A DNA stretch of 64,000 nucleotides from contig CAZUSA010000001.1 of the NCBI GenBank assembly GCA_964622835.1, positions 223,468 to 287,467 on the forward strand. Direction: 5' to 3'. The DNA is from Candidatus Woesearchaeota archaeon (GTDB lineage Archaea; Nanobdellota; Nanobdellia; SCGC-AAA011-G17; UBA489). The translations under genes were made by a program, and so were the position numbers. Positions 3,277 through 63,642 of the stretch are shown here, piece after piece (within the stretch, counting starts at the first letter, position 1; every line of letters begins with the position of its first letter). The notes under the pieces are model-generated. The model had not been told where the DNA came from, did not search any database, and saw only the letters and a program-made list of their open reading frames with translations.

Positions 3277-3395
3277 TGTCGGACGACCATAGCGACTTGG
3301 TTCCACCTGTTCCCATTCCGAACACAGCAGTTAAGCAAGTCCGCGTTCCAGACGGTACTGTACTTTGTTACGGGAACTCTGGTTCGTTGTCCTCT
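3277..3395 (+). rRNA. rrf: 5S ribosomal RNA
   Basis: Contains CCATAGCG, then CCACCTGTTCCCATTCCGAACACAGCAGTTAAGC (loop B/C consensus), CGCG..GACGGTACTG and GGGAACTCTGG. The ends GGACGACC and GGTTCGTTGTCC can form helix I. Manual alignment to the 5S consensus is good. The ORF-track protein 3267..3716 overlaps this RNA and is largely spurious at its 5' end. Confidence 0.8.
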
Positions 3396-27263: not shown

Positions 27264-28661
27264 ATGACAAAAAAACCAACGGCGTTTCTTTTAGCACCAA
27301 ATTCTGCTGATGACATGGACGGTTCGCTTATTTCATATTCTATGGCTATGGGATATTTGGGTCCGTATGCAGAACGCGCAGGATGGAATGTTATTGTAAA
27401 GGATACCTATTGTTTAGATTGGGATGCAACAGAAAAATCTATTCGTGAAGTTATTGCAAAACACGATCCTGAAGTTATTGGTATTAATTGTATTACAATG
27501 AATCGCATGGCTGTGTATGATGCTATTAATTTAGCACGAGAATTATCTCCTAATATTAAGATCGTTATTGGTGGTGTACATCCAACAATGTTCCCTCAAC
27601 ACTTTTTACTAAGTCATCCTGGTGATGTTGTTGTGCGTTTTGAAGGTGAAGAAACCTTTGAAGATTTATTAAACACCTTCACAAGTGGTGGCGACCTTAA
27701 AGATGTCAAAGGTATTGCCTATAAAGAAAATGGCAAAGTAGCCTTAACAGCGTTACGTCCTCAAATTCAAGATTTAGATAATATGCCTTTTTTGAAGCAT
27801 GATTATTATTTAGATGATAAGAGTACACATGCATATTTCCTTTCTTCACGTGGTTGTCCTAATAGTTGTAATTTTTGTTCTACAGTATTACATTGGGGCC
27901 ACCAATATCGTATGAGAACACCAAAGAGTATGGTTGATGAAATTGAGTATGTTGTAAAAAAGTATCCAAGTATTGAAGAGATTCGGTTTATGGATGATAT
28001 TTTCACCTTAGATAATAAGAGAGTTATTGATATTTGTAAGGAAATTGTTCGTCGTAAAATTAAGGTAAAATGGCGTGCTGAAGGCCGTGTATATCCTACA
28101 TCACCAGAGATGGTACAGTGGATGGATAAGGCTGGTTGTATTATGTTGAGTTTTGGTGTTGAAACTGGTTCTCCACAGTTATTGGAAGAAGTTGGTAAGA
28201 ATCAAACAGTTGACCAAATTCTTAATGCGTTCAAAACAGTGTACCAATATTCTGATAATATTGAACCTGAAATGTTTTTCATTTTAGGATTGCCTAATGA
28301 GTCAGAAAAAACTGTTGATGAGAGTATTGATTTGGTAAAGAAGATTATTGATTTTTCAGGTAAGCCGTTAGCGTTAACGACAGCAAGATATCTTGAGATT
28401 TATCCTGGAACTGATATTTATGAAATTGCTCAAGCAAAGAACATGATTGATGACGATTACTGGTTAACAAATCCTGAAACACCAGTTTATTTTGAACATA
28501 CGAAAGACTGGTTAGCAAAGCAACGGTTTAAGATTCTTTTTGCAAATTGGACGTACCCTGGTGTGCGTGCAGTTACAAAGTTCTTAGTGAGAAAACAAAT
28601 GTGGCGTCCACGTAAAATTTACAATGTGGTCAGGCCATACATGAAAGGGTTGAATCAGTAA
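27264..28661 (+). CDS. B12-binding radical SAM enzyme, paralog 2
   Basis: SSRGCPNSCNFCS radical SAM motif after an N-terminal B12-binding-like domain; paralogous to 20679 and 41855. Confidence 0.75.
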   Translation: MTKKPTAFLLAPNSADDMDGSLISYSMAMGYLGPYAERAGWNVIVKDTYCLDWDATEKSIREVIAKHDPEVIGINCITMNRMAVYDAINLARELSPNIKIVIGGVHPTMFPQHFLLSHPGDVVVRFEGEETFEDLLNTFTSGGDLKDVKGIAYKENGKVALTALRPQIQDLDNMPFLKHDYYLDDKSTHAYFLSSRGCPNSCNFCSTVLHWGHQYRMRTPKSMVDEIEYVVKKYPSIEEIRFMDDIFTLDNKRVIDICKEIVRRKIKVKWRAEGRVYPTSPEMVQWMDKAGCIMLSFGVETGSPQLLEEVGKNQTVDQILNAFKTVYQYSDNIEPEMFFILGLPNESEKTVDESIDLVKKIIDFSGKPLALTTARYLEIYPGTDIYEIAQAKNMIDDDYWLTNPETPVYFEHTKDWLAKQRFKILFANWTYPGVRAVTKFLVRKQMWRPRKIYNVVRPYMKGLNQ

Positions 28662-40773: not shown

Positions 40774-41871
40774 ATGAAAATTGCCTTTACAACAGATTAT
40801 AGTTTTCCATCGAAATGTGGCGTGTGGAACGTTGTGTATCAGACAGCAAAGCAATTAATTAAAAGAGGACATGAAGTCCATATATTTTCGAGTAATACTA
40901 TTAAAGGAACAAATCAAAAGTCTTCATTATTTGAAGTCCATGAAAAAATAACATATCATCGATTCCCTGTTTTAGGTAAGATTGGTGAAAATGGACAAAT
41001 ATGGAATTTTAAGAAAGCATTAATCAATGTGCAACCAGATATTATTCATGCTCATGCGTATAGACATTTTCATGCTAATCTTGTTCCTAAGATTGCTAAG
41101 AACTTAAATATTCCTTGTTATTTAACAACACATGCACCATTCCCTGGTAAGAATATTAGAACATCTAAAACACAAAAGCTTGTGGATCTTTTTGATAAAT
41201 ATATTGGGAAAAAATTACTTAATAGTTATTCCAAGGTGTTTGCAATATCCCAATGGGAAATTCCTCTCCTAAAAAGTATTGGTTGTGAAGAAAGTAATAT
41301 TGTTTTTTTACCGAATGGTTATCCACAGGAATTATTTGATCTTAAAACGTCGTTTAAAAAAAAGGCAGTGTATCTTGGAAGAATTTCTGCGGTAAAGAGT
41401 TTAGAAACATTTCTTGCTGCTGCAAAGGAATTACCTGATTGGTCATTTACTATTCATGGTTCAAAAGAAGGTTCATATGAATTAACAGAGTGCCCAAAAA
41501 ATGTTACAATTACAGTAAAACCTTTTGATTTGAAGGAAGAAAAGAAAATTTTAGAAAAAAATGCAGTGTTTATTCTTCCGAGCGTAACAGAAGCTGTTCC
41601 TTTAGCGCTACTTGAGGCTATGGCAGCAGGATTAGTGTGTATTAGCTCTAAAACACGCGGTGGTATGGAATTACTAACTGAAGGAAAGACAGGATTATTA
41701 TTCCCTATTGGTAACAGTGATGCATTAGTTCGAGCTATAGACAAAGTAAATGCTACAAAATGGAAAAGCATTACAAGTGCTGCAAAAAAATCCGTAAAGG
41801 ATCGTTCATGGGAAGATCTTGTTGAAAAGGTTGAAAGAAATTACATAAAAGATCTTATTTTAATACGTTAA
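40774..41871 (+). CDS. glycosyltransferase family 4 (GT-B)
   Basis: EAVPLALLEAMAAGLVCISSKTRGGMELLTEGKTGLLF is the GT4 signature. Confidence 0.75.
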   Translation: MKIAFTTDYSFPSKCGVWNVVYQTAKQLIKRGHEVHIFSSNTIKGTNQKSSLFEVHEKITYHRFPVLGKIGENGQIWNFKKALINVQPDIIHAHAYRHFHANLVPKIAKNLNIPCYLTTHAPFPGKNIRTSKTQKLVDLFDKYIGKKLLNSYSKVFAISQWEIPLLKSIGCEESNIVFLPNGYPQELFDLKTSFKKKAVYLGRISAVKSLETFLAAAKELPDWSFTIHGSKEGSYELTECPKNVTITVKPFDLKEEKKILEKNAVFILPSVTEAVPLALLEAMAAGLVCISSKTRGGMELLTEGKTGLLFPIGNSDALVRAIDKVNATKWKSITSAAKKSVKDRSWEDLVEKVERNYIKDLILIR

Positions 41872-43498
41872 GTGATATTTTTTCTTCTGAATTGTTCTTT
41901 TCTTTAGCTGGTTGTATAACAGTTAATTCTTCTTGCTCTGGCTGTTCTTTATCAGGCATATCATAAGCATATTCTTCAATGTGTGATTTGTTAAAGAAAC
42001 TAATGTGTTTAAAGGAGAGAAAGTTTTTTGCCATTTTTGTTATGAAGTGGAGATTATTAGTATCGCGTAAATGATAAAATAACCAAGGAAGGGAATAGAA
42101 TGGATTGGTCATGGAGCGTATTTTTCTTCGAATAAAATTTTTTTGTGCTTTTACTTGCATTTTTTGGAGTTCTTCTCCGGTAAAATGGTGTGTATCATAC
42201 GTTGGATTGATAAGATTACTTTGCTGGTTGCCTCTGAGGAGTCCTTCTTTCTTAAATTTATCATACAGTGGTGTGCCAGCATACGGTTGGGCTACGTAGA
42301 AGAGGGAAAAATCCAATCCAGAATCATTTGCAAAATCTATGGTTTCTTGTATGTCTTCTTTTGTTTCATCCGGGAACCCAATGAGAAACGTAGAGACGGT
42401 AAAAATACCAAGTTTTTTACATGCAGTAATAATTTTTTTACAGTGATCATAGTCTATGGGTTTGTGGATGTATTGGTCCATTGTTTTTTTACATCCTGTT
42501 TCTATACCAAATGATGCACGATGATAGCCTGATTTAGCCATTTTTTTGAGTAAGGGTTCATCAAGAGTCCATATAGCAATGCCGTTGGGTGTGTCCCATT
42601 TAAAGTCAAGACCACGTGCTACAATGTCATCACAGATATCTGCAACACGTTTTGTATCTAAAGAAAAATTGTCATCTTGAATGCGTATGTGTTTAACACC
42701 GTATTCTTTAACAAGGTGTTCCATTTCGTCAACAACAAGTTTTGCTGATCGTGTTCGCCAAACACGTTTCCATACAGTAAATATTGAACAAAAAGAACAT
42801 TTTTGGGGACATCCCCGACTTGTGATCATATCTGTTGCAGGCCCTTTACCAATACCCACATCATTCAAAGGATGTTTAAGATATTTTTCCATGGGTAACA
42901 AATGTCGAGCAGGCATAGGTAATTCATCAAGTGACCAAATAAATGGTCGTTCTTCATTCTTTTTCACTTTTCCTTTTGCGTCAAGTAGTATAGTTCCTTC
43001 AATCTTGTTAAGTGCAGATTTCTTTTTGTTTTTTGCAAATGTTTGTACAATTTCTCTGAAAGTATATTCTGCTTCTCCATGAACAATAACATCAACGTCT
43101 TTGTTAGCAAGAACGCTTTCAGGTGATGCTGAAGAATGGGCCCCACCAAAAACAACAAGTGTTTCAGGAAATATTTTTTTAACAATACGTGCTACGTCAA
43201 AACTGTCTTGTTCATACATTGAATATGAACAGTTAATACCTACAACATCTGGTCGAAATACTTTGAGTTCTTGTTCAATACCAATTGCAGAAGTTCCAAC
43301 ACGATAGGTGTCATCACTAACACGTTGAACGATATGATAATCTGCTAAACAATCAAGAATTCTAACAGAAAAGTCTGCTTCTTCAAGGACAGCTCCAAGA
43401 TAGGCTAATCCTAACGGGACTTTGGTATTTGTGATACCAGCCTTGAGGCTACCAGTAAGGGGACTGCCTATGAGCATAACTCTTGTTTGTGCGGCCAT
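41855..43498 (-). CDS. B12-binding radical SAM enzyme, paralog 3
   Basis: MITSRGCPQKCSFCS radical SAM motif; full-length paralog of 20679..22223. Confidence 0.75.
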   Translation of the reverse strand: MAAQTRVMLIGSPLTGSLKAGITNTKVPLGLAYLGAVLEEADFSVRILDCLADYHIVQRVSDDTYRVGTSAIGIEQELKVFRPDVVGINCSYSMYEQDSFDVARIVKKIFPETLVVFGGAHSSASPESVLANKDVDVIVHGEAEYTFREIVQTFAKNKKKSALNKIEGTILLDAKGKVKKNEERPFIWSLDELPMPARHLLPMEKYLKHPLNDVGIGKGPATDMITSRGCPQKCSFCSIFTVWKRVWRTRSAKLVVDEMEHLVKEYGVKHIRIQDDNFSLDTKRVADICDDIVARGLDFKWDTPNGIAIWTLDEPLLKKMAKSGYHRASFGIETGCKKTMDQYIHKPIDYDHCKKIITACKKLGIFTVSTFLIGFPDETKEDIQETIDFANDSGLDFSLFYVAQPYAGTPLYDKFKKEGLLRGNQQSNLINPTYDTHHFTGEELQKMQVKAQKNFIRRKIRSMTNPFYSLPWLFYHLRDTNNLHFITKMAKNFLSFKHISFFNKSHIEEYAYDMPDKEQPEQEELTVIQPAKEKNNSEEKISLNVLK

Positions 43499-49658: not shown

Positions 49659-50358
49659 AATATCGAAGGATATGGAGCCTGTAGGCTATAGCCAGGGTAT
49701 CAACGAACATATAGTAGATCTCTTTTAAGTTTATCCCTGTGCCACTGAATTTATAGGTAAGAGATATTGGTGCTTCATATATCTTGTATCCTTGTTTATG
49801 CGCATTAAGTAAAAGCTCTAAATCAAAGGCATATTTTTTGATGGCAACGCGTGGTAGTACATTATCTAATACTTCTTTCTTAAAGAGTTTTAATCCTGAT
49901 TGTGTATCTTGTAATCGTAAGCCGAGTAAAAAAAAGACGAGAATGTGGTATCCAAAGCTAAAGAATTTACGAAACCACGGGTAATGCACATTTGATTGAT
50001 GATGACGTTTGTTACCAATAACAACATCTGCATTGGTTAGATGTTTTGCAAAGTGTTTTATTTGGTCTGGATGAAGGTCTAAATCTGCATCAATAAAGGT
50101 TACTGCATCTCCTGTAACAAAAGTGTATCCATATTTTAGTGCATGTCCTTTTCCTTTGTTTTTTTTATATCCTACGACGCGTAAATATTTTGAGCGTATT
50201 TTTTTTGCTTCTGCAAGACAGTTGTTTGTTGATCCATCATCAACGAGTATAATTTCGTAGTGCTTAAAATTACTACTTATACTTTTTATCATTTCTTGCA
50301 TGTTTGCATAAATATTTGTTTCGTTGTACATGGGTACAACAACAGAAAGTTTATTCAT
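49636..50358 (-). CDS. glycosyltransferase family 2 (DPM1-like polyprenyl-phosphate sugar synthase)
   Basis: LSVVVPMYNET...ILVDDGSTNN...GKGHAL...FIDADLDLHPDQI. Confidence 0.7.
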   Translation of the reverse strand: MNKLSVVVPMYNETNIYANMQEMIKSISSNFKHYEIILVDDGSTNNCLAEAKKIRSKYLRVVGYKKNKGKGHALKYGYTFVTGDAVTFIDADLDLHPDQIKHFAKHLTNADVVIGNKRHHQSNVHYPWFRKFFSFGYHILVFFLLGLRLQDTQSGLKLFKKEVLDNVLPRVAIKKYAFDLELLLNAHKQGYKIYEAPISLTYKFSGTGINLKEIYYMFVDTLAIAYRLHILRYYDKKHTN

Positions 50359-51589
50359 TTTTTACCCTCCAAACAATGAAGAATAATGCAATAAAGAGTA
50401 TTGCACCGACACCTTGCAAGAGGGTTACAACTTGTGCAAGAGTATCATGGTAGAGATAGATGAGGATAAGTTCAAGTGCTAAAAAGAAAGCAAATAAGTA
50501 AAGGAAGGTATATTTTTTAAGTGAAAGTAAGTAGAGAGAAAATAATTTTGAAAATGAAATGGTTGCCATGAATATACCGTAGGGAACGATAAGTGGTGTA
50601 ACAGAAAGATATGCAGAACCAAAGAGTAATTGTACAACAAAGGTACCAAAGAAGTGATATCCTAAGATAATAGGCACGGTAATGATTCCAATGATGCCAG
50701 CTGATTTCCACATCAATGATTTATGTGCTCCTCCTTGTTCGGAGAGTTCAACAACTTTAGGGAACATTACTTGGACGATGGAAAATGATGCAAAGAATAC
50801 TATTTTTCCTATGAGACTTATGACTGCATAATGTCCTGCATCTATTGCGGGAAAAAAGTGTTTAATCAAGAAAAGATCTAGGGAATAAAATGCTGTAAAG
50901 AAAAGAACGGTCACAAACATGGGTAATGTATATTTGTATATTTCTCGAAGAGGGAATGATTCTTTTGTTCCTTGAATGTATGTTTTTATTTTTCGAATGC
51001 CGTATATTGTTGCTAAGGCATAAGAAAGGATGATTGCAACAAGTGCTCCCCCAACACTGTATCCTAATATCACAAGCAATATTCCTGCAATGAGTTTTGT
51101 TGTTCCTTCTACGGCAAGGTTCATACCGTATGTGCGAAAGTGTTGTAGTCCTTGAAGAAAGCCACGAACAATAGAGAGTTCAGGAACGACGAGTATGGCC
51201 AGTATTGAAATAAACAAGAGATAGTAGGGTATGCGCAAATAGGATGAAAGAAAGATATTGACAATTAATAAAAGAACAAATGCTATGATTGTCCCATATA
51301 TCATTTTTTTGGTGTAGTCTGAATAAAGATAACGAAGGCGTTCAGTTTGTTTTTTCAGATGTAATAATGTTACAAATTTGGATATACTAAATTGGAATGT
51401 TGTTGCAAGTATACCCATTAACGCCGTAAGGGCTATGAGTGTTGCTAAGACACCATAACTTTCCGGTCCAAGTGTCCTTCCCATGTAAAAGTGAAAGAGA
51501 AATCCTGTAAGATTAATGACACCTGTTCCAATAAGTAAATATAAATTGTCTTTAAAAAAATGTTTGTTATCTGCCATTATATCACCCAT
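50351..51589 (-). CDS. oligosaccharide flippase (MOP/Wzx-like)
   Basis: 412 aa with about 12 TMs and a Wzx-like architecture. Confidence 0.6.
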   Translation of the reverse strand: MGDIMADNKHFFKDNLYLLIGTGVINLTGFLFHFYMGRTLGPESYGVLATLIALTALMGILATTFQFSISKFVTLLHLKKQTERLRYLYSDYTKKMIYGTIIAFVLLLIVNIFLSSYLRIPYYLLFISILAILVVPELSIVRGFLQGLQHFRTYGMNLAVEGTTKLIAGILLVILGYSVGGALVAIILSYALATIYGIRKIKTYIQGTKESFPLREIYKYTLPMFVTVLFFTAFYSLDLFLIKHFFPAIDAGHYAVISLIGKIVFFASFSIVQVMFPKVVELSEQGGAHKSLMWKSAGIIGIITVPIILGYHFFGTFVVQLLFGSAYLSVTPLIVPYGIFMATISFSKLFSLYLLSLKKYTFLYLFAFFLALELILIYLYHDTLAQVVTLLQGVGAILFIALFFIVWRVKNE

Positions 51590-52581
51590 ATAAGTGCAGC
51601 AAAGAAAGCTTGTATGACAAAGATGAAGTAGGTAATTTGTTTTTCAGTGTAGTTTCCGTTTTTCATAAACAAGTGTGTTACTGAATAGGGCGTGTCATAT
51701 TTTGATTGTATATTTCCATGCACCCATATGCCATAACTTGCTGCAGTAAAACGACTACGGAGTTTCAAAAAGAATTCTACAAAGAAAGGTATTGAAATAA
51801 TAAGTGCTGCTTTTTCAAGGTTACCGAGGATAGCTACGCTTGCAAGTGTCCCACCTAAGAAGTATGTTAATGAATCGCCTGGAAGAATTTTTGCTGGTGT
51901 TTTGTTGTAAAACCAAAAGGCACAGAGTGATGTAAAGGCAAGGAGTGCTAAGAGTGCTGCTATGTATTGGTTATGAACAAAGGCGTAGAAACCTAATGAT
52001 CCTAAATAAATAATTCCCATGCCCACTTCCAAACCATTTAATCCTGCAAGCATATTAACCATGTTTGCTGCACCGACAAATCCTATGGGTACAAAGAGTA
52101 ATGGATAAATAACACCTAAGGCTACATCACCAAAGAAGGGCAAATAAATTGTTGATGTTCCTGCGTGGGTGACCATTAGGGGTATTGCTGCAATAAGTGT
52201 GAGAAAGGGTTTTTGCCATTGGCGTAAACCTCCTGATGCTTCTTTGGATTTGGTAATGAGCACATCATCAAGGAATCCGATGATTGTTACTAAGAAAATA
52301 GATATAAACCCTGCAAAGAGAACGAGAAATTGTCCGCTTTCAAGAGTAAGTTCTGCTGCACCTATATCAAAGAATGTGCGAAAAAAGATGAAGAGCATGA
52401 ATCCTACGAAGAATCCTGCAAAGACGGCAAGACCTCCAGATATAGGAACGAGTGGCCGGTGTTCTTTGTTTTGGTCTTTGACAACAAGGTCTATGCGACG
52501 AAGGTATCTGATTAACCAAGGCGTCGTGAGATAGGTAATAAATGCACCGATAGCTGCCACGACAAATGCGAGGATGTTCAT
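51577..52581 (-). CDS. UDP-GlcNAc:polyprenyl-phosphate GlcNAc-1-P transferase (MraY/WecA/AglH family)
   Basis: 334 aa, 10-11 TMs, matches the MraY/WecA/AglH family. Confidence 0.65.
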   Translation of the reverse strand: MNILAFVVAAIGAFITYLTTPWLIRYLRRIDLVVKDQNKEHRPLVPISGGLAVFAGFFVGFMLFIFFRTFFDIGAAELTLESGQFLVLFAGFISIFLVTIIGFLDDVLITKSKEASGGLRQWQKPFLTLIAAIPLMVTHAGTSTIYLPFFGDVALGVIYPLLFVPIGFVGAANMVNMLAGLNGLEVGMGIIYLGSLGFYAFVHNQYIAALLALLAFTSLCAFWFYNKTPAKILPGDSLTYFLGGTLASVAILGNLEKAALIISIPFFVEFFLKLRSRFTAASYGIWVHGNIQSKYDTPYSVTHLFMKNGNYTEKQITYFIFVIQAFFAALIWVI

Positions 52582-57638: not shown

Positions 57639-58358
57639 TTATTTTTGTATGTCTTTCCAGTCAGTTCCACCAGTAAGTAGATGCATACATTTCAAAGAGG
57701 TATCTAAGAAAATTGTGTGGCCTTTTTCACGGACATCAACGCAGAAGTGTGTATCATCAAAAACTTCTGGCCGTTTAGGATCAATCCTAAATTGTGTGCC
57801 TTCTTCAAAGATACTGCGATGGATAAGCATACATCCAAGTCCAACAATTGCAACGGGCAATACTGCATCTTTCCGTACATGTTCATAGGTCAAACGATGA
57901 ACAAAGGTGCTTTTTTCTGAGTGTTTTTTATAGGCAACTGGTAGCACTTCTCGTTTGATAACTTTACCAGATTCAGTAACATGGCTAAACGGTTTAAAAT
58001 ACACTCCAGAAATGACTTTTTTATCATGGGCTAATAATCGTTCAATAATATCTTTGGGTGGTATAATATCACATTCCAGGCTTAAGAAATAGTCATAACC
58101 ACCATCAAGAACAGTTTGACGGAGGATGTTTCGTGATTGGATAAGGCGTTCTCGAGCAGATTCAAGATAGGGTATGTGTTGAACGGGTATTTTTGATGCT
58201 TGAATAGTCTTGAAGAAGGTATCATCTTTAGAGTTATCGACGAGGAGAACGTCCTTGTGAGCGTATGTAAGTGCGTGTAAACCGTTAACATAGCGGTCAA
58301 AGCAGTAAGCCTTATGATCAGATATAGGACATCCAACGAGTACTTTTGGTGGTGACAT
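57639..58358 (-). CDS. putative GT-A fold glycosyltransferase
   Basis: 239 aa; LLVDNSKDDT and SLECDIIP (DxD-like) suggest a nucleotide-sugar transferase fold; weak evidence. Confidence 0.35.
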   Translation of the reverse strand: MSPPKVLVGCPISDHKAYCFDRYVNGLHALTYAHKDVLLVDNSKDDTFFKTIQASKIPVQHIPYLESARERLIQSRNILRQTVLDGGYDYFLSLECDIIPPKDIIERLLAHDKKVISGVYFKPFSHVTESGKVIKREVLPVAYKKHSEKSTFVHRLTYEHVRKDAVLPVAIVGLGCMLIHRSIFEEGTQFRIDPKRPEVFDDTHFCVDVREKGHTIFLDTSLKCMHLLTGGTDWKDIQK

Positions 58359-58366
58359 AGTATGAA

Positions 58367-58449
58367 CGCCGCGGGCAGGATTTGAACCTACATATCCAAA
58401 GGAAACAGGCTTTCAAGGCCTGCGCAATACCAGATTATGCGACCGCGGC
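58367..58449 (-). tRNA. tRNA-Ser (anticodon TGA)
   Basis: Reverse complement folds: acceptor GCCGCGG/CCGCGGC, anticodon stem CAGGC/GCCTG with loop CTTGAAA, long variable arm (class II), T-arm GTAGG-TTCAAAT-CCTGC, discriminator G. Confidence 0.75.
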
Positions 58450-58481
58450 ATGGCAGAATCAGGGATGAATGTTTTTTAAAC

Positions 58482-59144
58482 CTACCTCATGATACCTAAT
58501 AACGTTAAAACGAGTCTATCTGCTGCTCGAATGATTTCCATTTCGTTAGGTGATGCTCCTTGAACAACAAGGCATCCTTCTTCTTCAAAGACAGCTGTTT
58601 CTTCACCAAGACGTAACCATATTACGAGTGTTCCATCGTGTGAGTCTTCACATGTTTTGATGGTTTGTTCTTCAAGTGATAATTGTGATTCTTCTGTTGG
58701 ACTCATGAAGGAGCTATTAACAGGTATGTTATACAAATGATTGTTGTCAATAAAGTAGTCTATTTCTTTTGCTGCAACAGTTGTTGCTCCGCGCAATTCA
58801 TCTGATGGTTCAATAGTTACATAGACATTCGTTGCATCAAGGATTATTTCTTTAACATAGGATGGATCAATAGGTATGTCTTCGAGTGTTCGCGGGTCTT
58901 CACGGATGCTCATTAATGTAGGAAATTGTGCATCGTTGAGGTAGAATTCAAAGATAAAACCTACGCCTGAATCTGCTGGTGAAAAAGGAATGCTGTTATA
59001 TGTGAAGTATTCACGTTCGATGGCAGTATTACTTGCTTGATAAAACCACACACCCATAGCAAGAAGGAGAACAAATCCTACAATAGTTATGATACCAATG
59101 GTTCGTTCAGTGTTTTTTGTTGGTTTTGCAGGTTCGTCTGTCAT
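58482..59144 (-). CDS. hypothetical N-terminally anchored extracytoplasmic protein
   Basis: TM IGIITIVGFVLLLAMGVWFY followed by an acidic ectodomain; downstream of the S-layer gene on the same strand. Confidence 0.45.
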   Translation of the reverse strand: MTDEPAKPTKNTERTIGIITIVGFVLLLAMGVWFYQASNTAIEREYFTYNSIPFSPADSGVGFIFEFYLNDAQFPTLMSIREDPRTLEDIPIDPSYVKEIILDATNVYVTIEPSDELRGATTVAAKEIDYFIDNNHLYNIPVNSSFMSPTEESQLSLEEQTIKTCEDSHDGTLVIWLRLGEETAVFEEEGCLVVQGASPNEMEIIRAADRLVLTLLGIMR

Positions 59145-59722
59145 GAAAATATTCCCCCGTGGTACATGATGAGTGCATCAGTAACGCCAAGAAGATAAGA
59201 TTCTGTTCCTTCAAGTGCAAAACAATTATTTTCATAGGTTGTTGATCGTTCGCCTGCAAGGGCGTATGTAAAAAGAAGTGTATTTTCTGGAAGTGTGTCA
59301 CAAGAGTATAAGGGCAGTTCTAAGCAGTGTTCTTCGTCTGCTGCTGCTTCTGTGCAAGAAAAGTGAATGGTTCGTTCTCTGTTAAGATTGAAGGCAAGTT
59401 CTTGCATGTAAACGACGGTTGCTTGGTTGGATACGTCAAGGTAAAGTGTGGGTGTAGCTAGAAAGTCTTGAAGGAATGATGGTGAAAGATGATCAATAAA
59501 TCCTTCTACTGTTGTAGGGTCATAACGTGTCCTATAGGTAATATCGTTAATAGTAAAGAGATATGTGCCACTATCTTGTCGGAAGACAATGTCATTGTAT
59601 TTTATTGTTGTTGAATCGTCTGATAGTCCACCAATGACAACACCAAACATACTCAAGACCATAATACCTATGATAAAAAGGGGAAGAAAAAGTTTACTTT
59701 TTTGTTTTGTTGTACGTCGCAT
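59141..59722 (-). CDS. hypothetical N-terminally anchored extracytoplasmic protein
   Basis: TM LFLPLFIIGIMVLSMFGVVIGG; 4-nt overlap with the downstream gene; weak similarity to 58482..59144. Confidence 0.45.
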   Translation of the reverse strand: MRRTTKQKSKLFLPLFIIGIMVLSMFGVVIGGLSDDSTTIKYNDIVFRQDSGTYLFTINDITYRTRYDPTTVEGFIDHLSPSFLQDFLATPTLYLDVSNQATVVYMQELAFNLNRERTIHFSCTEAAADEEHCLELPLYSCDTLPENTLLFTYALAGERSTTYENNCFALEGTESYLLGVTDALIMYHGGIFS

Positions 59723-59731
59723 CGTCTCTGC

Positions 59732-60199
59732 TTATCCAATGTATTTTTCTGCTTCAGCTGTATCTTTTTTTGACGTGGTTGGTGTTGCAAGTGAGGGCAT
59801 TGGTATGTGTGATGGTAATGCCATGTCTTGTTCAAGTTCGAGTGCTTTGATATTACATCGGTCAAGAATGTTATTAATGACGGGTATAGAGACATCTTTT
59901 GGAAGTTTTTTTGTTGTTTTCCAGAGGTCAAGTACTTTTTTTGCTTCATCTTGTGGAAGCATGTAATTAACTGTTCCTAAGATTTTTAAGGAAACAATAT
60001 CAGGATTATAATCAACACTAAATTCAAAAGCAAATCCGAGAACGGTGCTTCCACCACTAGATAGACGTGAAGACTCTTCATAGACCTCTTTAAGGTCCAT
60101 ATCATAGCGCACTTTCATGCCTTTAATGAGTTTCTTTTTGCGTTCTACGGCTATTTTTTTGAAGTTAAATCCTACGATCATTGTACTGGCTGTGCGCAA
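59732..60199 (-). CDS. hypothetical protein
   Basis: 155-aa ORF with no recognisable motif; lies between the S-layer gene and the membrane-anchored pair. Confidence 0.4.
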   Translation of the reverse strand: MRTASTMIVGFNFKKIAVERKKKLIKGMKVRYDMDLKEVYEESSRLSSGGSTVLGFAFEFSVDYNPDIVSLKILGTVNYMLPQDEAKKVLDLWKTTKKLPKDVSIPVINNILDRCNIKALELEQDMALPSHIPMPSLATPTTSKKDTAEAEKYIG

Positions 60200-60294
60200 A
60201 TGACGGTTTATATATGTTACGTTAATTGAATAGATAGTTTTGAGAAAAAAAAGAAGAAAAGAAGTGTAGCGTTTTACCGCTACACAACTTAGCT

Positions 60295-62931
60295 TTAAAC
60301 CATAGCCATATTACTGGATAGGTCGTTATTTGCATAATCCTCTAGGATCTTAGCAGCTCTTCTCGTATCTTCACCATCGGTTCCAGCTACGAGTAATGCA
60401 ACATTGTCGCCGTTGTCAACCATTTCTAGAACAGCTTCACCAGGTCCGTAAGACCAAGCACTACATGCTCCGAAAAGTTCCGCTGCGACGGTATTTGCAC
60501 ATGGACCACCAACAACAATTGCGTTCCAGTCTGAGATGTCATCAACATCAGAGTCTAGTAGGTTAGCAAGTGTTAGATCTGCTATTTCACAGTTAACGCT
60601 TGTTGCCGTTTTAGTTGTTGTCGTATCACCGAAGGTCACGAACACACGAGCGCCTCTCTGCGTGAGTGGGTACTCAATGGTTAGTGTTTCCGGGTTGTCC
60701 GTTGACGACGGGTCATACAGGGTGTATAAAGCACCGTAGTCTGACATACCATAGTAGTAATCGTCGTTATCTGCGTCTTCCAAAAGTGCTTGGATACCAC
60801 CAGAACTGTGTGCTAGACTTTCATTAATGAGAATTCCAATCTCATTATTTGATCGGTCATCAATTACAACAGTTACATTTTCGTGTGTAGCTGCTGTACC
60901 AGCACTAGTTGGTCCAACTTCATCGAAATCCTCTGATAGAGTGATTAAGGTAAAGTTAACATTGGCAGTAGAGATAGTCTCTCCTGTATTTGTCCAAGTT
61001 CCATTGTCACCAATAGCACTACCAACATCAGCAGTCCAAACTCCACCTGTGGAATTTGAGTGGTCACCTAAATCAAGGATTCCACCGCCGTTAATGGTAA
61101 CTCTGACTTCTTCCAGAGAAGCACTACCATCACCATCAAGATCAATGATTAATGGAGGGTTTGTACTACCTGTAGTGTTGGTTACATAAACTTTGTATGT
61201 TGTTCCACCAATAACAAGATCAGCATCACCGATTGTACCGTTACCATTACCATTAAGTGTTGTCCAAAGAGAGAATGTTACTTCTTTGGTATCACCAGTT
61301 GCCATATCCTTGAATTTTAATGTTCTATCGCTTGCATCGTAGTTATCGTAACGAAGTACATGCGAAATAGCATCATTGTCCAAACCATCAGCAGTATCTA
61401 TATCACTTAATAAAAAGTAATCTAAATGTCCAACGGTTGGTAAGTTATGTGTGGAGTTACCTAATGAAGAATAGTTTCCTTCTTCAAAGACAAAGTCTCT
61501 ATCATCGTTACCATACTTGAAGGTTCCGCCTTCGTTTGTAATGAATGGTACGTTGTACACTAAACCTTGTTTGTTTTCAAAGATAAGACTGTATTCATCG
61601 TCACCTTTTGGATCCAACTTTACAATACTTGTTTGTACATCATCAAGACCTTCGTATCGAATGTCCCATGCTGTTCCAAGCATTCCTTGTGGTTCTTCTA
61701 GGTATTCACGAACACCGTGTTCAGGTTCTACCCAGATGTCTACACCATTAAGTGAGTCTGCTGAGAGTCTGTACTTAATCGATGAAAGTTCAAGTTTACT
61801 TCCGCTTGAGGATGTCGATGCAGATATTGAAGCAAGAGCGTTTGTAATCTCTTCGTTGTCAATTTCTACTCGTTGTTCAAAGACGGTATCAGTGTAGGTT
61901 AGATCTTCAAGAACAAGTTTGCTTGCACCTAAGTACAATTCAACAATATCTCCTGATCCTGCTTCACCAGCTTCGTTAAGAACAATATCGCTAACACCAA
62001 CGAGCGTATCGTCGTTTAATGTTGTTGTTTGACTGTCCTTAAGTTGTTTAGTGATTTCACCGTTAATCTCAAAGGTTACTGTTGCAGGTGTAACATCTTC
62101 AATAATCATTACGGTTACTTCGAAGTCTTTTCCATCAATGTTGTAGGTTTTTGTTTCACCTTCACCAAGAATGTCGAAAACTGCGCCACCGAGCATAGTT
62201 AATTTGATGTCTGCTGCTGCAGTATCCACACTTGTTTCAACAATTGAATATGTTGTTCCAAGAATGAGGATTTCTTCATCTTCTAAGTCTGGTAATTCTC
62301 CAGATGTTACTTCACTTTCAAGTCCTGATTCGAATTCTAATTCGTATTCGAAGAAAGCAAGATTTACATTTGTAGGATCTGTGCTATCAGGGATGTATAA
62401 GTAATCTCCAACGTATCCGTCAAAGATTCCTTCACTTTCAGTAAAGTTTACTACGGGTGCATTTGTAATTGCATTAGAATTATCTAAAAACCGTAGGTAT
62501 TGATTGAAATTTGTTGAACCTTCGTCAGTAGTTATTTTTCCACCAGCAAGACCGCCACCAAGTACTTCAACATCTGTTAAAGTTTCTCGTACGTCTCCGA
62601 TGCTTTCACGTAGTTCTAGTAAGTCACTAGCGTGTGAAATTTCTACTGCGTCGCCAGATACACTAGTAAGACTAGCGCCTGCTGCTCCACAAACTTTGCT
62701 ATCAAATTGTAGTTGCTCTACAATGTCAAGAGCACCAATTGTATCTATAGATCTTGCATCAGCACCAACCACAATTGCGAGGTTAGATACACCTTTACCA
62801 TTCACGATAAAGGGCGCTGGAAAATCCGCGAGGTCTGGTTGTGCGATTGCGCCGGTTAATGATGCACCGAGCATTGCCATTCCAGTTCCGATTGCTGTAA
62901 TTCTTTTAACAGCTCTTTTTAGTCTTTGCAT
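60295..62931 (-). CDS. S-layer protein (Methanococcus-type S_layer_N/S_layer_C family)
   Basis: Signal ITAIGTGMAMLGASLTGAIA|QPD; N-terminal FPAPFIVNGKGVSNLAIVVGADARSIDTIGALDIV and C-terminal AIVVGGPCANTVAAELFG...ALLVAGTDGEDTRRAAKILEDYA match the conserved termini of Methanococcales/Thermococcales S-layer proteins; GGAGGTG RBS. Confidence 0.75.
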   Translation of the reverse strand: MQRLKRAVKRITAIGTGMAMLGASLTGAIAQPDLADFPAPFIVNGKGVSNLAIVVGADARSIDTIGALDIVEQLQFDSKVCGAAGASLTSVSGDAVEISHASDLLELRESIGDVRETLTDVEVLGGGLAGGKITTDEGSTNFNQYLRFLDNSNAITNAPVVNFTESEGIFDGYVGDYLYIPDSTDPTNVNLAFFEYELEFESGLESEVTSGELPDLEDEEILILGTTYSIVETSVDTAAADIKLTMLGGAVFDILGEGETKTYNIDGKDFEVTVMIIEDVTPATVTFEINGEITKQLKDSQTTTLNDDTLVGVSDIVLNEAGEAGSGDIVELYLGASKLVLEDLTYTDTVFEQRVEIDNEEITNALASISASTSSSGSKLELSSIKYRLSADSLNGVDIWVEPEHGVREYLEEPQGMLGTAWDIRYEGLDDVQTSIVKLDPKGDDEYSLIFENKQGLVYNVPFITNEGGTFKYGNDDRDFVFEEGNYSSLGNSTHNLPTVGHLDYFLLSDIDTADGLDNDAISHVLRYDNYDASDRTLKFKDMATGDTKEVTFSLWTTLNGNGNGTIGDADLVIGGTTYKVYVTNTTGSTNPPLIIDLDGDGSASLEEVRVTINGGGILDLGDHSNSTGGVWTADVGSAIGDNGTWTNTGETISTANVNFTLITLSEDFDEVGPTSAGTAATHENVTVVIDDRSNNEIGILINESLAHSSGGIQALLEDADNDDYYYGMSDYGALYTLYDPSSTDNPETLTIEYPLTQRGARVFVTFGDTTTTKTATSVNCEIADLTLANLLDSDVDDISDWNAIVVGGPCANTVAAELFGACSAWSYGPGEAVLEMVDNGDNVALLVAGTDGEDTRRAAKILEDYANNDLSSNMAMV

Positions 62932-62949
62932 TTGTTAAACACCTCCGTA

Positions 62950-62998
62950 ATGTTTAACGCTAAACATGTTTTAGTTTCTCTCACAAATTCTTGTGAGA
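62950..62998 (-). promoter_or_regulatory. two adjacent perfect hairpins in the S-layer 5' UTR
   Basis: ATGTTTA-acgc-TAAACAT (62950..62967) and TCTCACAA-attc-TTGTGAGA (62979..62998), just upstream of the GGAGGTG RBS at 62940..62946. Confidence 0.45.
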
Positions 62999-63070
62999 TT
63001 CTATCTGCGTCCACACGGACAGTTTTGTCTATGTTATGTTATTACTATAGGCTGTTGTATCGCTGATCGA

Positions 63071-63078
63071 TTTATAAA
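63071..63078 (-). promoter_or_regulatory. candidate TATA box (TTTATAAA) of the S-layer gene, about 140 nt upstream of the ATG
   Basis: Archaeal TATA consensus; implies a 5' UTR of about 110 nt, as is common for S-layer mRNAs. Confidence 0.35.
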
Positions 63079-63204: not shown

Positions 63205-63642
63205 TTATTGTGTGCAGAGTTGAAGTTGAGTTTCATAGGCAAGTCCGTCCGTAACGAAAACATAATGTGATACTAATCCTAATGAGCAGAGTCCTGTGGA
63301 ATAAAAGGCTTCCTCTTGATAGGTTGCCGTAAAGGAATAGAGCGTTCCAGGGCGTAAAATGACTAAATATGCCTCTTGGAGGGCTTCTTCCAGCAGTATA
63401 CAGTCCTTAGGGTCTTTGTGGCAGGCAACAATGAGTTCTTCAAATGTTTGGTCACCATATGCAGGGAAAGAGACTTTCATGAGGGTTTGAAGGGCTCGTT
63501 CGGCTTCAAGGCTGGTTCGTTGGTTGGTTAATGAGCTCCCTTGGGCTAAATTAACAAATCCAAGGTAAATAACACCTAAAACAAGGAGAATAACGACTAT
63601 GACAAGTAATCCTAGGACTTCTGATTGGGCTTTTCGTGTCAT
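63205..63642 (-). CDS. archaeal type IV pilin-like protein (class III signal peptide)
   Basis: MTRKA|QSEVLGLLVIVVILLVLGVIYLGF has a prepilin-peptidase-type (FlaK/PibD) K/R-A|Q site followed by a hydrophobic helix. Confidence 0.45.
   Translation of the reverse strand: MTRKAQSEVLGLLVIVVILLVLGVIYLGFVNLAQGSSLTNQRTSLEAERALQTLMKVSFPAYGDQTFEELIVACHKDPKDCILLEEALQEAYLVILRPGTLYSFTATYQEEAFYSTGLCSLGLVSHYVFVTDGLAYETQLQLCTQ

What the first reader, a model, noticed from the sequence alone, without database searches (positions are those of the whole stretch)
60295..63078. Methanococcus-type S-layer gene with long structured leader next to the glycosylation locus
The 878-aa protein has the conserved S_layer_N and S_layer_C termini. 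Upstream are a GGAGGTG RBS, two consecutive perfect hairpins (7- and 8-bp stems) and a TATA box about 140 nt upstream, suggesting a stable, possibly regulated 5' UTR. This protein is the likely major acceptor for the predicted unusual glycan
Basis: partly seen in the sequence, partly recalled or inferred. Interest (0 to 1): 0.55.

Follow-up and report, generated by a model that had tools for sequence, protein, structure and literature searches.

The report
Woesearchaeal S-layer gene, structured leader
This is the cell-surface (S-layer) protein gene of an uncultured DPANN archaeon (Woesearchaeota); unlike its mostly leaderless neighbours it carries a long folded leader whose conserved feature is a small hairpin that displays the ribosome-binding site in its loop, a modest refinement of something already known for S-layer genes.

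Summary
Window 60295..62931 (minus strand) encodes an 878-aa secreted protein. It passes PF05124 and TIGR01564. Its N- and C-terminal segments together match the crystallised cell-wall-anchoring domain of the Methanococcus voltae S-layer protein (9FSA). PF05123 is not matched, and the roughly 700-aa beta-rich middle has no solved relative.

About 95 homologues were found. Those that carry a source name are labelled Woesearchaeota or Nanoarchaeia, apart from evident mislabels.

TTTATAAA lies 147 nt upstream, GGAGGTG lies 8 nt before the ATG, and both perfect hairpins exist.

Comparison of about 80 homologous loci changes the picture:
- The 8-bp hairpin is structurally conserved.
- The 7-bp hairpin is not. 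One of its arms belongs to a conserved hairpin that holds GGAG of the ribosome-binding site in its loop (consensus AAACAC-GGAG-GUGUUU). This hairpin has 42 distinct stems and was found only at S-layer starts in 843 kb.

Leaders across the family are unusually structured (mean z -3.0, against -0.8 for controls). Most neighbouring genes look leaderless.

The most likely role is mRNA stabilisation plus strong SD-dependent translation of a very abundant protein. A riboswitch-like switch is not supported.

The glycosylation island and AglB are present. Sequons are not enriched overall but cluster in the hypervariable region. A SecB-fold gene lies immediately downstream and is syntenic.

The parts
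63071..63078 (-). TATA box TTTATAAA, the predicted promoter of the S-layer gene
   Evidence: Read directly in the sequence. A TATA-like element is found at a median of 114 nt upstream in 69 homologues. It is invariant in the close-clade alignment A3.
63026..63050 (-). Predicted transcription start region and conserved 5'-end block (CTATAGTAATAACATAACATAGACA). The start is inferred at about 63040-63049.
   Evidence: Leaderless-looking genes in this window have the 5' T of their TATA box 29-38 nt before the ATG. The block ATAGTAATGACAT..ATAGAGA is conserved in A3 exactly 30 columns after the TATA. The start site has not been mapped experimentally.
62932..63048 (-). Predicted 5' leader, about 110-117 nt
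   Evidence: MFE -27.6 kcal/mol with z -2.86. z is -3.25 in the family-wide set.
63008..63021 (-). Hairpin A (UGUCC-GUGU-GGACG)
   Evidence: dG -5.3 kcal/mol in isolation. Relatives have GTCC/GGAC, GTCT/AGAC, AGTCT/AGACT or CAGTTT/AGACTG at the same place. Its probability in the single-sequence ensemble is low.
62979..62998 (-).
   Evidence: dG -8.6 kcal/mol and pair probabilities of about 1.0. It is present in the independent MFE folds of 10 of 11 close relatives, with different stem sequences: CTCAAT/ATTGAG, CTCGGCA/TGCTGAG, ATCTTGA/TCAAGAT, CTCAGTA/TACTGAG and ATCTTGGT/ACTGAGAT.
62950..62967 (-). It is real in the sequence but probably not functional.
   Evidence: dG -2.9 kcal/mol and pair probability of about 0.001. 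Its 3' arm is the 5' arm of hairpin C. Analogues exist only in L015, L086 and L089.
62934..62958 (-). Hairpin C, the SD-enclosing hairpin GUUAAACAUU-ACGGA-GGUGUUUAAC
   Evidence: It is in the MFE and the centroid structure, with dG -7.2 kcal/mol. The family consensus is AAACAC-GGAG-GUGUUU. In 76 of 83 homologues GGAG lies in a hairpin loop, and there are 42 distinct stems. In the swap test, own arms give -6.03 against -4.92 +/- 0.16 for swapped arms, with 0 of 300 permutations reaching the observed value. The covariance model hits only S-layer starts.
62940..62946 (-). Shine-Dalgarno sequence GGAGGUG, 8 nt before the ATG
   Evidence: Only 3 ORFs in the 64-kb window have a GGAGG Shine-Dalgarno sequence.
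60295..62931 (-). S-layer protein coding sequence, 878 aa (coordinates include the stop codon)
62842..62931 (-). Signal peptide, residues 1-30 (MQRLKRAVKRITAIGTGMAMLGASLTGAIA|QPD)
   Evidence: Read from the sequence: a basic N-terminus, a hydrophobic core and A-x-A. The N-terminus is conserved in all homologues. pLDDT is below 50 for residues 1-30. Cleavage is inferred.
62677..62835 (-). N-terminal half of the split anchoring domain, about residues 33-85
   Evidence: The PF05124 alignment starts at residue 33. Profile positions 41-73 match 9FSA residues 14-44.
60772..61491 (-). Hypervariable, sequon-rich region, residues 481-720 (probably the exposed, glycosylated face)
   Evidence: This region has the lowest column conservation, 0.34-0.50. 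It holds 9 of the 10 sequons, against 4.1 +/- 1.8 expected (P 0.008). In homologues, 335 of 432 sequons fall in the 28% of the length that aligns here.
60337..60579 (-). C-terminal half of the split anchoring domain, about residues 785-865, with the conserved GGPCAN motif
   Evidence: TIGR01564 matches residues 792-863. The 9FSA alignment covers residues 790-863. Cys811 is present in 40 of 41 homologues.
60242..60285 (-). Terminator: hairpin GUGUAGCG-GUAAAA-CGCUACAC followed by UUCUUUUCUUCUUUUUUUUCUC
   Evidence: Nearly all of 73 homologues have an oligo-T tract shortly after the stop codon. The hairpin (GTGTGGCT..AGCCACAC) is conserved in the close clade.

Best explanation
The region is a self-contained, probably monocistronic expression unit for the S-layer protein of a Woesearchaeota (DPANN) archaeon.

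The protein is secreted through Sec. Its N-terminal ~50 and C-terminal ~90 residues fold together into the same anchoring and dimerisation domain as in Methanococcus S-layer proteins. A lineage-specific ~700-residue beta-rich middle forms the lattice. A hypervariable, N-glycosylated stretch (residues 481-720) probably faces outward.

Transcription starts about 30 nt after a consensus TATA box, giving a leader of about 115 nt. This contrasts with the neighbouring genes, most of which look leaderless. The leader holds stable 5'-proximal hairpins (A and B), an A-rich spacer, and a hairpin (C) whose loop presents GGAG of a 7-nt Shine-Dalgarno sequence while the stem pairs its last three bases.

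I infer that hairpins A and B protect the abundant mRNA from decay. I infer that hairpin C keeps the ribosome-binding site in a defined, accessible conformation, insulated from misfolding with the rest of the leader. Together these would give strong and steady SD-dependent initiation. An oligo-T terminator with a hairpin ends the transcript.

Shown here: the protein family, the sequence anatomy, the conservation and specificity of the hairpins, and the unusually strong folding of the leaders. Inferred: the transcription start site, the stability and translation roles, glycosylation, and lattice formation.
For: Protein:
- PF05124 at E 5.5e-15 and TIGR01564 at 37.8 bits.
- 95 homologues besides the query itself; the named ones are labelled Woesearchaeota or Nanoarchaeia apart from one Peregrinibacteria label, and several are annotated 'S-layer protein'.
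- 9FSA is the M. voltae anchoring domain, built from residues 24-75 fused to 484-576. It is matched by a family profile at E 5e-8 and by Foldseek with probability 1.00.
- The AF2 model has pLDDT 85.8.

Leader:
- TATA 147 nt upstream in the window, and a median of 114 nt upstream in 69 homologues.
- In the window, 7 other genes have a TATA 29-38 nt before the ATG, and only 3 ORFs have a GGAGG SD.
- Leader folding z averages -3.0 with 72% below -2 (n=75), against -0.81 with 23% below -2 for 70 control upstream regions.
- Hairpin B is kept with different sequences in 10 of 11 close relatives.

Hairpin C:
- GGAG lies in a hairpin loop in 76 of 83 homologues, and there are 42 distinct stems.
- 48 of 534 pairs are G.U or U.G. 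U.G pairs occur at the two stem positions whose 3' G is fixed by the SD. This is what a sense-strand RNA helix predicts and a DNA palindrome does not.
- Each 5' arm folds better with its own 3' arm than with a swapped one (0 of 300 permutations).
- 49 of 61 S-layer SD sites form such a hairpin, against 11 of 72 other GGAGG sites.
- The covariance model found no off-target hit at E<=0.05 in 843 kb, and nothing else in the window.
- 33 of 120 sampled metagenome occurrences of the 16-mer directly precede S-layer homologues.

Terminator.

Literature:
- Woesearchaeal S-layer genes are among the top-expressed genes (PMC11606122).
- Methanosarcina slmA1 has a mapped, conserved 154-159-nt UTR with predicted structures (PMC3361143).
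- slaA/slaB and M. maripaludis slp 5' UTRs raise protein yield (PMC11627041).
Against: - No transcript data exist, so the start site is inferred only from the TATA spacing.
- The fixed-register pair count on the MAFFT alignment barely beats shuffles (69.0% against 67.4% paired; 27 of 500 shuffles reach it).
- RNAalifold returns no consensus structure on either MAFFT alignment.
- Support for covariation therefore rests on my own swap test and on per-sequence folds. Sequence relatedness can inflate both.
- In the window's own ensemble, hairpin C has only about 0.25 probability once 6 more coding nucleotides are included. It competes with a long-range pairing.
- The loop's conservation is explained by the SD itself, so only the stem is informative.
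- A stem that pairs GUG of the SD could reduce initiation rather than help it.
- Nothing here measures stability or translation.
Confidence: 0.62

Rival explanations
1. The leader is a translational switch. The reader's 7-bp hairpin and the SD hairpin are mutually exclusive alternatives, and a signal (temperature, a ligand or a factor) chooses between them to regulate S-layer synthesis.
For: The two hairpins share the segment UAAACAU, so they cannot coexist. A similar upstream copy, TGTTTA(A), exists in L015, L086 and L089.
Against: The alternative is weak (-2.9 against -7.2 kcal/mol) and has a probability of about 0.001. It is absent from L002, L081, L083, L085, L087 and L088, and from the wider family. 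In L015, L086 and L089 the folds pair that segment so as to extend hairpin B instead. There is no Rfam match, even at E<=10.
Confidence: 0.06
2. Hairpin C is an operator for a trans-acting RNA-binding factor that recognises a GGAG loop on a short A/U-rich stem. This factor would tie S-layer translation to export or assembly capacity, by autoregulation or through a dedicated regulator.
For: The motif is strictly specific for S-layer genes in 843 kb and in the window. The hairpin is conserved across very divergent homologues (31-76% protein identity) with changing stems. Other clades carry a second leader-specific motif, GATAGCC, in 1-3 copies just upstream. A conserved SecB-fold gene lies directly downstream.
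Against: No candidate binding protein has been identified. SD function alone explains the loop sequence, and a structural insulator explains the stem. The specificity may only reflect that few other genes in these genomes use a strong SD at all.
Confidence: 0.2
3. The inverted repeats act at the DNA level (as an operator for a dimeric transcription factor), or they belong to the terminator of the upstream pilin-like operon rather than to an S-layer leader.
For: Hairpin B scores as terminator-like on the plus strand in the pattern scan. Palindromes read the same on both strands.
Against: The hairpins lie downstream of the consensus TATA box and more than 200 nt after the upstream stop codon. 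No oligo-T follows them on the coding strand. The stems change sequence while keeping their pairing, and they use U.G pairs that would be mismatches in DNA or in the antisense RNA. No plus-strand gene converges on this site.
Confidence: 0.05
4. The hairpins are chance features of an AT-rich intergenic region.
For: A perfect hairpin of 7 bp or more occurs in 9% of shuffles of the region. The window holds 0.64 such hairpins per kb.
Against: Position and structure are conserved in relatives despite sequence change. The leaders fold far better than shuffles and than control regions.
Confidence: 0.03

Closest known systems
Methanococcales S-layer proteins (M. voltae Q50833, M. jannaschii; Pfam PF05124/PF05123, NCBIfam TIGR01564; crystal structure 9FSA of the anchoring domain)
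   Same: A signal peptide. A split anchoring and dimerisation domain built from the N-terminal ~50 and C-terminal ~90 residues. No C-terminal transmembrane anchor. Acidic composition.
   Different: 878 aa against about 570 aa. PF05123 is not matched. The central ~700 residues have no sequence or structural relative in the PDB. The protein belongs to a DPANN-specific clade. Two co-occurring cysteine pairs are present.
Methanosarcina slmA1 (MA0829 / Mbar_A1758) S-layer gene leader
   Same: A very highly expressed, monocistronic S-layer gene with a TATA box. It has an experimentally mapped, conserved 154-159-nt 5' UTR with predicted structures, and a hairpin after the gene (PMC3361143).
   Different: The protein family is unrelated (DUF1608). 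No SD-loop hairpin is described there. Here the start site is only predicted.
5' UTRs of archaeal S-layer genes used as expression enhancers (S. acidocaldarius slaA/slaB; M. maripaludis slp)
   Same: In organisms that are largely leaderless, SD-containing leaders of abundant proteins raise protein yield 2-4 fold (PMC11627041). This is the same logic as proposed here.
   Different: Those tests were of expression level only, without a role assigned to RNA structure. Nothing has been tested for Woesearchaeota.
Bacterial stabilising 5' stem-loops (E. coli ompA leader; Lactobacillus slpA leader). This comparison rests on my own knowledge and was not checked here.
   Same: 5'-proximal hairpins in the long leaders of mRNAs for very abundant envelope proteins. 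They are thought to prolong mRNA half-life.
   Different: The decay machinery is bacterial (RNase E and RppH) rather than archaeal (aCPSF and RNase J-like). There is no homology.
SD-sequestering RNA thermometers and riboswitch expression platforms (ROSE, fourU)
   Same: A hairpin that overlaps the Shine-Dalgarno sequence just upstream of the start codon.
   Different: In those elements the SD core is buried in the stem. Here GGAG is unpaired in the loop and only the trailing GUG is paired. There is no Rfam match.

Membership tests
Methanococcales-type S-layer protein (PF05124 / PF05123 / TIGR01564) | Match to PF05124 (S_layer_C) above the gathering score | tested here: met
   55.9 bits against 23.9, E 5.5e-15. 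It is one alignment spanning residues 33-865 and model positions 1-175 of 177.
Methanococcales-type S-layer protein (PF05124 / PF05123 / TIGR01564) | Match to PF05123 (S_layer_N) | tested here: not met
   No hit in the hmmscan at E<=1. None of the 96 listed proteins carries it in the precomputed domains.
Methanococcales-type S-layer protein (PF05124 / PF05123 / TIGR01564) | Match to NCBIfam TIGR01564 S_layer_MJ above the curated cut-off | tested here: met
   37.8 bits against 25. Only two stretches match, the best being residues 792-863 against model positions 493-567 of 571. The central part of the model is not matched.
Methanococcales-type S-layer protein (PF05124 / PF05123 / TIGR01564) | Split N+C anchoring/dimerisation domain as in M. 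voltae (PDB 9FSA, residues 24-75 + 484-576) | tested here: met
   The family profile against the PDB gives E 5.2e-8, with both halves aligned. Foldseek gives probability 1.00, 30% identity and TM 0.46 relative to the target. The construct is described in PMC11410804.
Methanococcales-type S-layer protein (PF05124 / PF05123 / TIGR01564) | Forms the two-dimensional surface lattice and is the major envelope protein | not testable with these tools
   The only support is indirect. Woesearchaeal S-layer genes are among the top-expressed genes in metatranscriptomes (PMC11606122).
Long structured 5' leader of an S-layer mRNA (as in Methanosarcina slmA1) | Transcript start more than 100 nt upstream of the start codon | not testable with these tools
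   Inferred from the TATA box 147 nt upstream and from the 29-38-nt spacing between TATA and ATG in leaderless-looking genes. No transcript data are available.
Long structured 5' leader of an S-layer mRNA (as in Methanosarcina slmA1) | The leader is conserved among relatives and folds better than expected | tested here: met
   Mean z is -3.0 for 75 leaders, against -0.81 for 70 control regions. The conserved blocks and hairpins appear in A3 and in the independent folds.
Long structured 5' leader of an S-layer mRNA (as in Methanosarcina slmA1) | Base pairs supported by covariation | tested here: inconclusive
   The swap test is positive (0 of 300 permutations), and there are 42 distinct stems. 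However, the fixed-register count is weak (27 of 500), and RNAalifold finds nothing on the MAFFT alignments.
SD-sequestering riboregulator (RNA thermometer or riboswitch expression platform) | SD core paired in the stem in the off state, with an alternative conserved conformation | tested here: not met
   GGAG is in the loop in 76 of 83 homologues. The alternative hairpin is not conserved and has a probability of about 0.001. There is no Rfam family match.
Archaeal intrinsic terminator | Oligo-T tract shortly after the stop codon | tested here: met
   An 8-bp hairpin followed by UUCUUUUCUUCUUUUUUUU. T-tracts are present in nearly all of 73 homologues.

The most novel reading that the evidence does not exclude
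The SD-loop hairpin is a dedicated cis-regulatory RNA element of Woesearchaeal S-layer mRNAs. In other clades it may work together with the GATAGCC leader repeats. A trans-acting factor would read it to couple synthesis of the cell's most abundant secreted protein to export or assembly capacity. The SecB-fold protein encoded directly downstream might be part of this circuit, which would form an S-layer 'regulon of one' in organisms that otherwise translate leaderless mRNAs.
Probability: 0.1. Interest if true: 0.7.

Novelty: new variant of a known kind. Interest (0 to 1): 0.38.

Why it matters
S-layer genes, their strong promoters and their long leaders are well known, and homologues of this one are already annotated as 'S-layer protein' in public Woesearchaeota genomes. 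To that extent the finding is ordinary.

Three additions are modestly useful:
- A short, conserved, S-layer-specific RNA motif. It has no Rfam family. It could serve as a marker for the true start of S-layer genes in DPANN metagenomes, and as a candidate expression element for archaeal genetics.
- A clear within-genome contrast between a leadered, strong-SD gene and leaderless neighbours. This bears on how archaea allocate the two initiation modes.
- A pointer to a conserved gene neighbourhood: pilin-like proteins, the S-layer gene, a SecB-fold protein and two membrane-anchored proteins. This could guide work on envelope biogenesis in uncultivated DPANN archaea.

Tried and rejected
- RNAalifold on the MAFFT alignments of the SD region (A2) and of the close-clade leaders (A3) gave no consensus structure. 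MAFFT places the variable loops inconsistently, so the column-based tests are weak. I fell back on per-sequence folds and a swap test.
- Two other ~879-aa ORFs in the window were checked as possible S-layer paralogues. Neither is one: 22220..24859 is AglB/STT3, and 13850..16489 is unrelated.
- A whole-chain Foldseek search of the S-layer model gave only noise (TM below 0.12), apart from the 9FSA anchor domain.
- An Rfam scan of the leader at a permissive threshold found nothing credible.
- A 10-codon uORF (ATGTTTAGCGTTAAACATTACGGAGGTGTTTAA) overlaps the SD in the window. It is not conserved, because relatives have only the 3-codon ATGGAGGTTTAA, so I rejected it (read).
- I considered extended SD/anti-SD complementarity as the reason for the conserved flanks. 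I rejected it because GGAGGUG is followed by UUU rather than the AUC expected from the canonical archaeal 16S 3' end (my own knowledge), and because the flanks covary with each other. The organism's own 16S rRNA is not in the window, so this was not tested directly.
- The first call to the repeat finder failed because it does not accept minus-strand regions. I replaced it with my own hairpin count.
- Sequence searches of the downstream 149-aa protein against Pfam, NCBIfam and PDB sequences found nothing. Only the fold comparison identified it.


Full report
**What is there**

The window (36% G+C) carries an 878-codon ORF at 60295..62931 on the minus strand. Its product passes Pfam PF05124 (55.9 bits, cut-off 23.9). 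That match is one alignment running from residue 33 to 865 over model positions 1-175 of 177, so the domain is interrupted by about 700 residues. It also passes NCBIfam TIGR01564 'S_layer_MJ' (37.8 bits, cut-off 25), through two terminal stretches only. PF05123 is not matched at E<=1.

The large protein database holds 95 homologues besides the query itself (31-76% identity for full-length matches, mostly 790-1050 aa). Those that carry a source name are labelled Woesearchaeota, Nanoarchaeota or Nanoarchaeia, apart from one Peregrinibacteria label. Several are named 'S-layer protein'. The 80 genomic loci fetched are from Woesearchaeota or Nanoarchaeia MAGs, plus some MAGs labelled Methanosarcinales, Methanobacteriota, Euryarchaeota or Aenigmatarchaeota, which are probably mislabelled. 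The organism is therefore a DPANN archaeon of the Woesearchaeota. No species representative is closer than 72% identity.

**The protein**

A profile of 41 homologues hits one PDB sequence, 9FSA, at E 5.2e-8. Profile positions 41-73 and 771-851 align to the two halves of that chain. 9FSA is an engineered fusion of residues 24-75 and 484-576 of the Methanococcus voltae S-layer protein. These residues form the cell-wall-anchoring domain at the two-fold axis (PMC11410804).

An AlphaFold2 model built from the alignment is confident (pLDDT 85.8, pTM 0.72). It shows an alpha/beta module formed by the two termini and an all-beta middle. Foldseek against the PDB recovers 9FSA with probability 1.00 and 30% identity. 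Everything else has TM below 0.12.

'Methanococcus-type' is therefore true of the split anchor domain and not of the rest.

- Cysteines: residues 1-30 look like a Sec signal peptide ending A-I-A. Cys81 and Cys781 are present in 28 of 41 homologues each, co-occurring in all but one or two sequences, which suggests a disulfide tying the two halves of the anchor. Cys811 is present in 40 of 41 and Cys823 in 32 of 41.
- Composition: the protein is very acidic, with 151 D+E against 43 K+R.
- Sequons, overall count: 10 N-x-S/T against 8.8 +/- 2.6 expected, so there is no overall enrichment.
- Sequons, distribution: nine lie in residues 481-720, the least conserved stretch. Local composition predicts 4.1 +/- 1.8 there (P 0.008). 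The rest of the protein has 1 against 5.0 expected.
- Sequons in homologues: 335 of 432 fall in the 28% of the length aligned to that stretch. This fits an exposed, glycosylated, fast-evolving face.

**Upstream anatomy in the window (minus strand)**

- TTTATAAA at 63078..63071.
- A small hairpin A at 63021..63008.
- The perfect 8-bp hairpin B at 62998..62979.
- The perfect 7-bp hairpin at 62967..62950.
- GGAGGTG at 62946..62940.
- The ATG at 62931.

A perfect hairpin of 7 bp or more arises in 9% of dinucleotide shuffles of the intergenic region, and one of 8 bp in 2.5%.

Folding the predicted leader gives -27.6 kcal/mol (z -2.86). Both the MFE and the centroid structure contain hairpin B. They also contain a different 3' hairpin, GUUAAACAUU-ACGGA-GGUGUUUAAC (62958..62934).

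| Element | dG in isolation (kcal/mol) | Pairing probability in the ensemble |
|---|---|---|
| 7-bp hairpin | -2.9 | about 0.001 |
| Hairpin C | -7.2 | 0.25, when six more coding bases are included and a long-range pairing competes |
| Hairpin B | -8.6 | about 1.0 |

**Comparison with relatives**

I located the start codon in 78 loci (corrected). Almost all have GGAGGTG flanked by complementary bases, with the consensus AAACAC-GGAG-GTGTTT.

- Frequency: in 83 leaders, the MFE of positions -36 to +3 puts GGAG in a hairpin loop in 76.
- Stem and loop: the stem is 5 bp or longer in 72. There are 42 distinct stem sequences. The loop is the tetraloop GGAG in 36.
- Wobble pairs: 48 of 534 pairs are G.U or U.G. 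U.G pairs sit at the two stem positions whose G is fixed by the SD (13 and 7 of 72 sequences). This is what a sense-strand RNA helix predicts and a DNA palindrome does not.
- Swap test: each 5' arm folds better with its own 3' arm than with another sequence's. The means are -6.03 against -4.92 +/- 0.16 kcal/mol (0 of 300 permutations). For the 28 sequences whose 3' arm departs from the consensus, they are -5.95 against -4.51 +/- 0.30 (0 of 300).

The column-based tests are weak. In a fixed register, 69.0% of cells pair against 67.4% in shuffles (27 of 500), and RNAalifold returns nothing. The reason is that loop length varies and MAFFT shifts the arms. I therefore rate the covariation as supported but not settled.

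**Specificity**

- In the same loci, 49 of 61 S-layer SD sites form such a hairpin, against 11 of 72 other GGAGG-plus-start sites. Two of those 11 are further S-layer copies, and many of the rest are probably not gene starts.
- A covariance model of the motif finds only the S-layer leader in the window (22.3 bits; the next hit scores 15.7).
- In 843 kb of loci it finds 47 hits at E<=0.05, all at S-layer starts. One of them, in L051, was not in the training set.
- Of 120 sampled metagenome occurrences of the exact 16-mer, 33 directly precede S-layer homologues. The rest are scattered and unrelated.

**The leader as a whole**

The nearest TATA-like element lies a median of 114 nt upstream of the S-layer ATG in 69 homologues (10th-90th percentile 85-199 nt). 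In the window, seven other genes have a TATA whose 5' T lies 29-38 nt before the ATG, which is the leaderless arrangement. Only three ORFs have a GGAGG SD. That spacing places the S-layer transcription start at about 63040-63049.

Predicted leaders of 75 homologues fold with a mean z of -3.0, and 72% are below -2. For 70 control upstream regions from the same DNA, the mean z is -0.81 and 23% are below -2.

For the closest clade I fetched more loci and aligned them.

- The TATA box and a block ATAGTAATGACAT..ATAGAGA at the predicted start are conserved.
- Independent folds show hairpin B in 10 of 11 sequences with different stems (CTCAAT/ATTGAG, CTCGGCA/TGCTGAG, ATCTTGA/TCAAGAT, CTCAGTA/TACTGAG, ATCTTGGT/ACTGAGAT).
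- The same folds show hairpin C in 11 of 11.
There the folds use that segment to extend hairpin B.

Rfam has no match in the leader.

**Downstream**

Nine nucleotides after the stop codon comes an 8-bp G+C-rich hairpin followed by a 22-nt T-rich run. Nearly all of 73 homologues have an oligo-T tract there, and the close clade keeps the hairpin. The next gene has its own TATA about 33 nt before a conserved ATG at 60181. The S-layer gene is therefore most likely monocistronic.

**Mechanism**

The anatomy matches what is known for other S-layer genes:

- Methanosarcina slmA1 has a mapped and conserved 154-159-nt UTR with predicted structures of unknown role, and a hairpin after the gene (PMC3361143).
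- SD-containing leaders of slaA/slaB in the largely leaderless Sulfolobus acidocaldarius, and of slp in Methanococcus maripaludis, raise protein yield (PMC11627041).
- Woesearchaeal S-layer genes are among the most expressed genes in situ (PMC11606122).

I therefore favour a constitutive 'high-output' leader. In this reading, the 5' hairpins slow decay and the SD-loop hairpin keeps the ribosome-binding site exposed and insulated. None of this has been measured.

A switch between the 7-bp hairpin and hairpin C is unlikely. A protein-binding operator cannot be excluded.

**Context**

The glycosylation island is real.

- Close to the S-layer gene: an Anp1-like glycosyltransferase at 57639..58358, a GT4 (PF00953) at 51577..52581, and a flippase-like gene at 50351..51589.
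- Further along the island: three GT2 genes, sugar epimerases/dehydratases, a nucleotidyltransferase, methyltransferases, two B12-radical-SAM enzymes, two PMT_2 proteins and a GT1.
- About 35 kb away: AglB/STT3 at 22220..24859.

Only the Anp1-like gene recurs near the S-layer gene in some relatives.

**Verdict**

This is a correctly spotted S-layer gene with a genuinely long, structured leader. The family assignment holds for the anchor domain only, and the second hairpin was mis-identified. The interesting residue is a conserved, S-layer-specific SD-loop hairpin, together with a conserved neighbourhood that includes a SecB-fold protein. I rate interest at 0.38 and novelty as a new variant of a known kind.

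Noticed in passing
window 59732..60181 (-): The gene directly downstream of the S-layer gene encodes a 149-aa protein. Its true start is probably the ATG at 60181, with its own TATA about 33 nt upstream. It has no Pfam, NCBIfam or PDB-sequence match. Its AlphaFold2 model (pLDDT 80, pTM 0.73) matches SecB and SecB-like chaperones over its full length: 5mtw at E 1.9e-5, and 1qyn and 1fx3, with probability 1.0 and TM about 0.5. It sits directly after the S-layer gene in 21 loci of the closer clade. It may be a dedicated export chaperone. An archaeal SecB homologue, MJ0357, is already known (PMC4361572).
   Followed up: partly
window 63205..63642 (-), 63639..>64000 (-), and L083:257-2746: Upstream of the S-layer gene lies a conserved co-directional set of four small proteins (about 175, 330, 180 and 145 aa). 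Their N-termini look like class III (type IV pilin/archaellin-type) signal peptides, for example MTRKAQSEVLGLLVIVVILLV and MIRKKGQVHVSETILVLFVVVV. The 145-aa protein gets a sub-threshold TIGR02537 arch_flag_Nterm hit (15.5 bits against 20). The synteny is seen.
   Followed up: partly
window 59141..59722 (-) and 58482..59144 (-): Two proteins (193 and 220 aa) with a single N-terminal membrane anchor have no family match. They are syntenic with the S-layer and SecB-fold genes in the closer clade.
   Followed up: no
L023, L032, L063, L070, L074 and others, about 30-76 nt upstream of the S-layer ATG: The motif GATAGCC(AA) occurs in 1-3 copies in the S-layer leaders of 12 of 82 more distant homologues. 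It is about 58-fold enriched over the rest of the loci. One copy typically lies at about -33, just before the SD hairpin. It is absent from the window's leader, which has AGATAGAA at 63006..62999.
   Followed up: partly
window 27264..28661 (+) and 41855..43498 (-): Two B12-binding radical-SAM enzymes lie inside the glycosylation island, alongside two SAM methyltransferases, a UDP-galactopyranose-mutase-like flavoprotein and two PMT_2 proteins. This hints at an unusually modified glycan.
   Followed up: no
window 13850..16489 (-): An 879-aa ORF with no Pfam match and no similarity to the S-layer protein. It is the same length as AglB and the S-layer protein by coincidence.
   Followed up: no
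L106, L121, L144, L146 (metagenome contigs): The exact 16-mer AAACACGGAGGTGTTT also precedes, four times, a 101-aa secreted protein (MRGxLLL...AERIVVRNSPGAVVTSAQADAD) on contigs that do not look archaeal. This is probably convergent use of a strong SD with self-complementary flanks.
   Followed up: no
window 58366..58450 (-), 3279..3395 (+): A tRNA-Ser(TGA) gene lies between the S-layer cluster and the first glycosyltransferase. A stand-alone 5S rRNA gene and three more tRNA genes lie elsewhere in the window.
   Followed up: no
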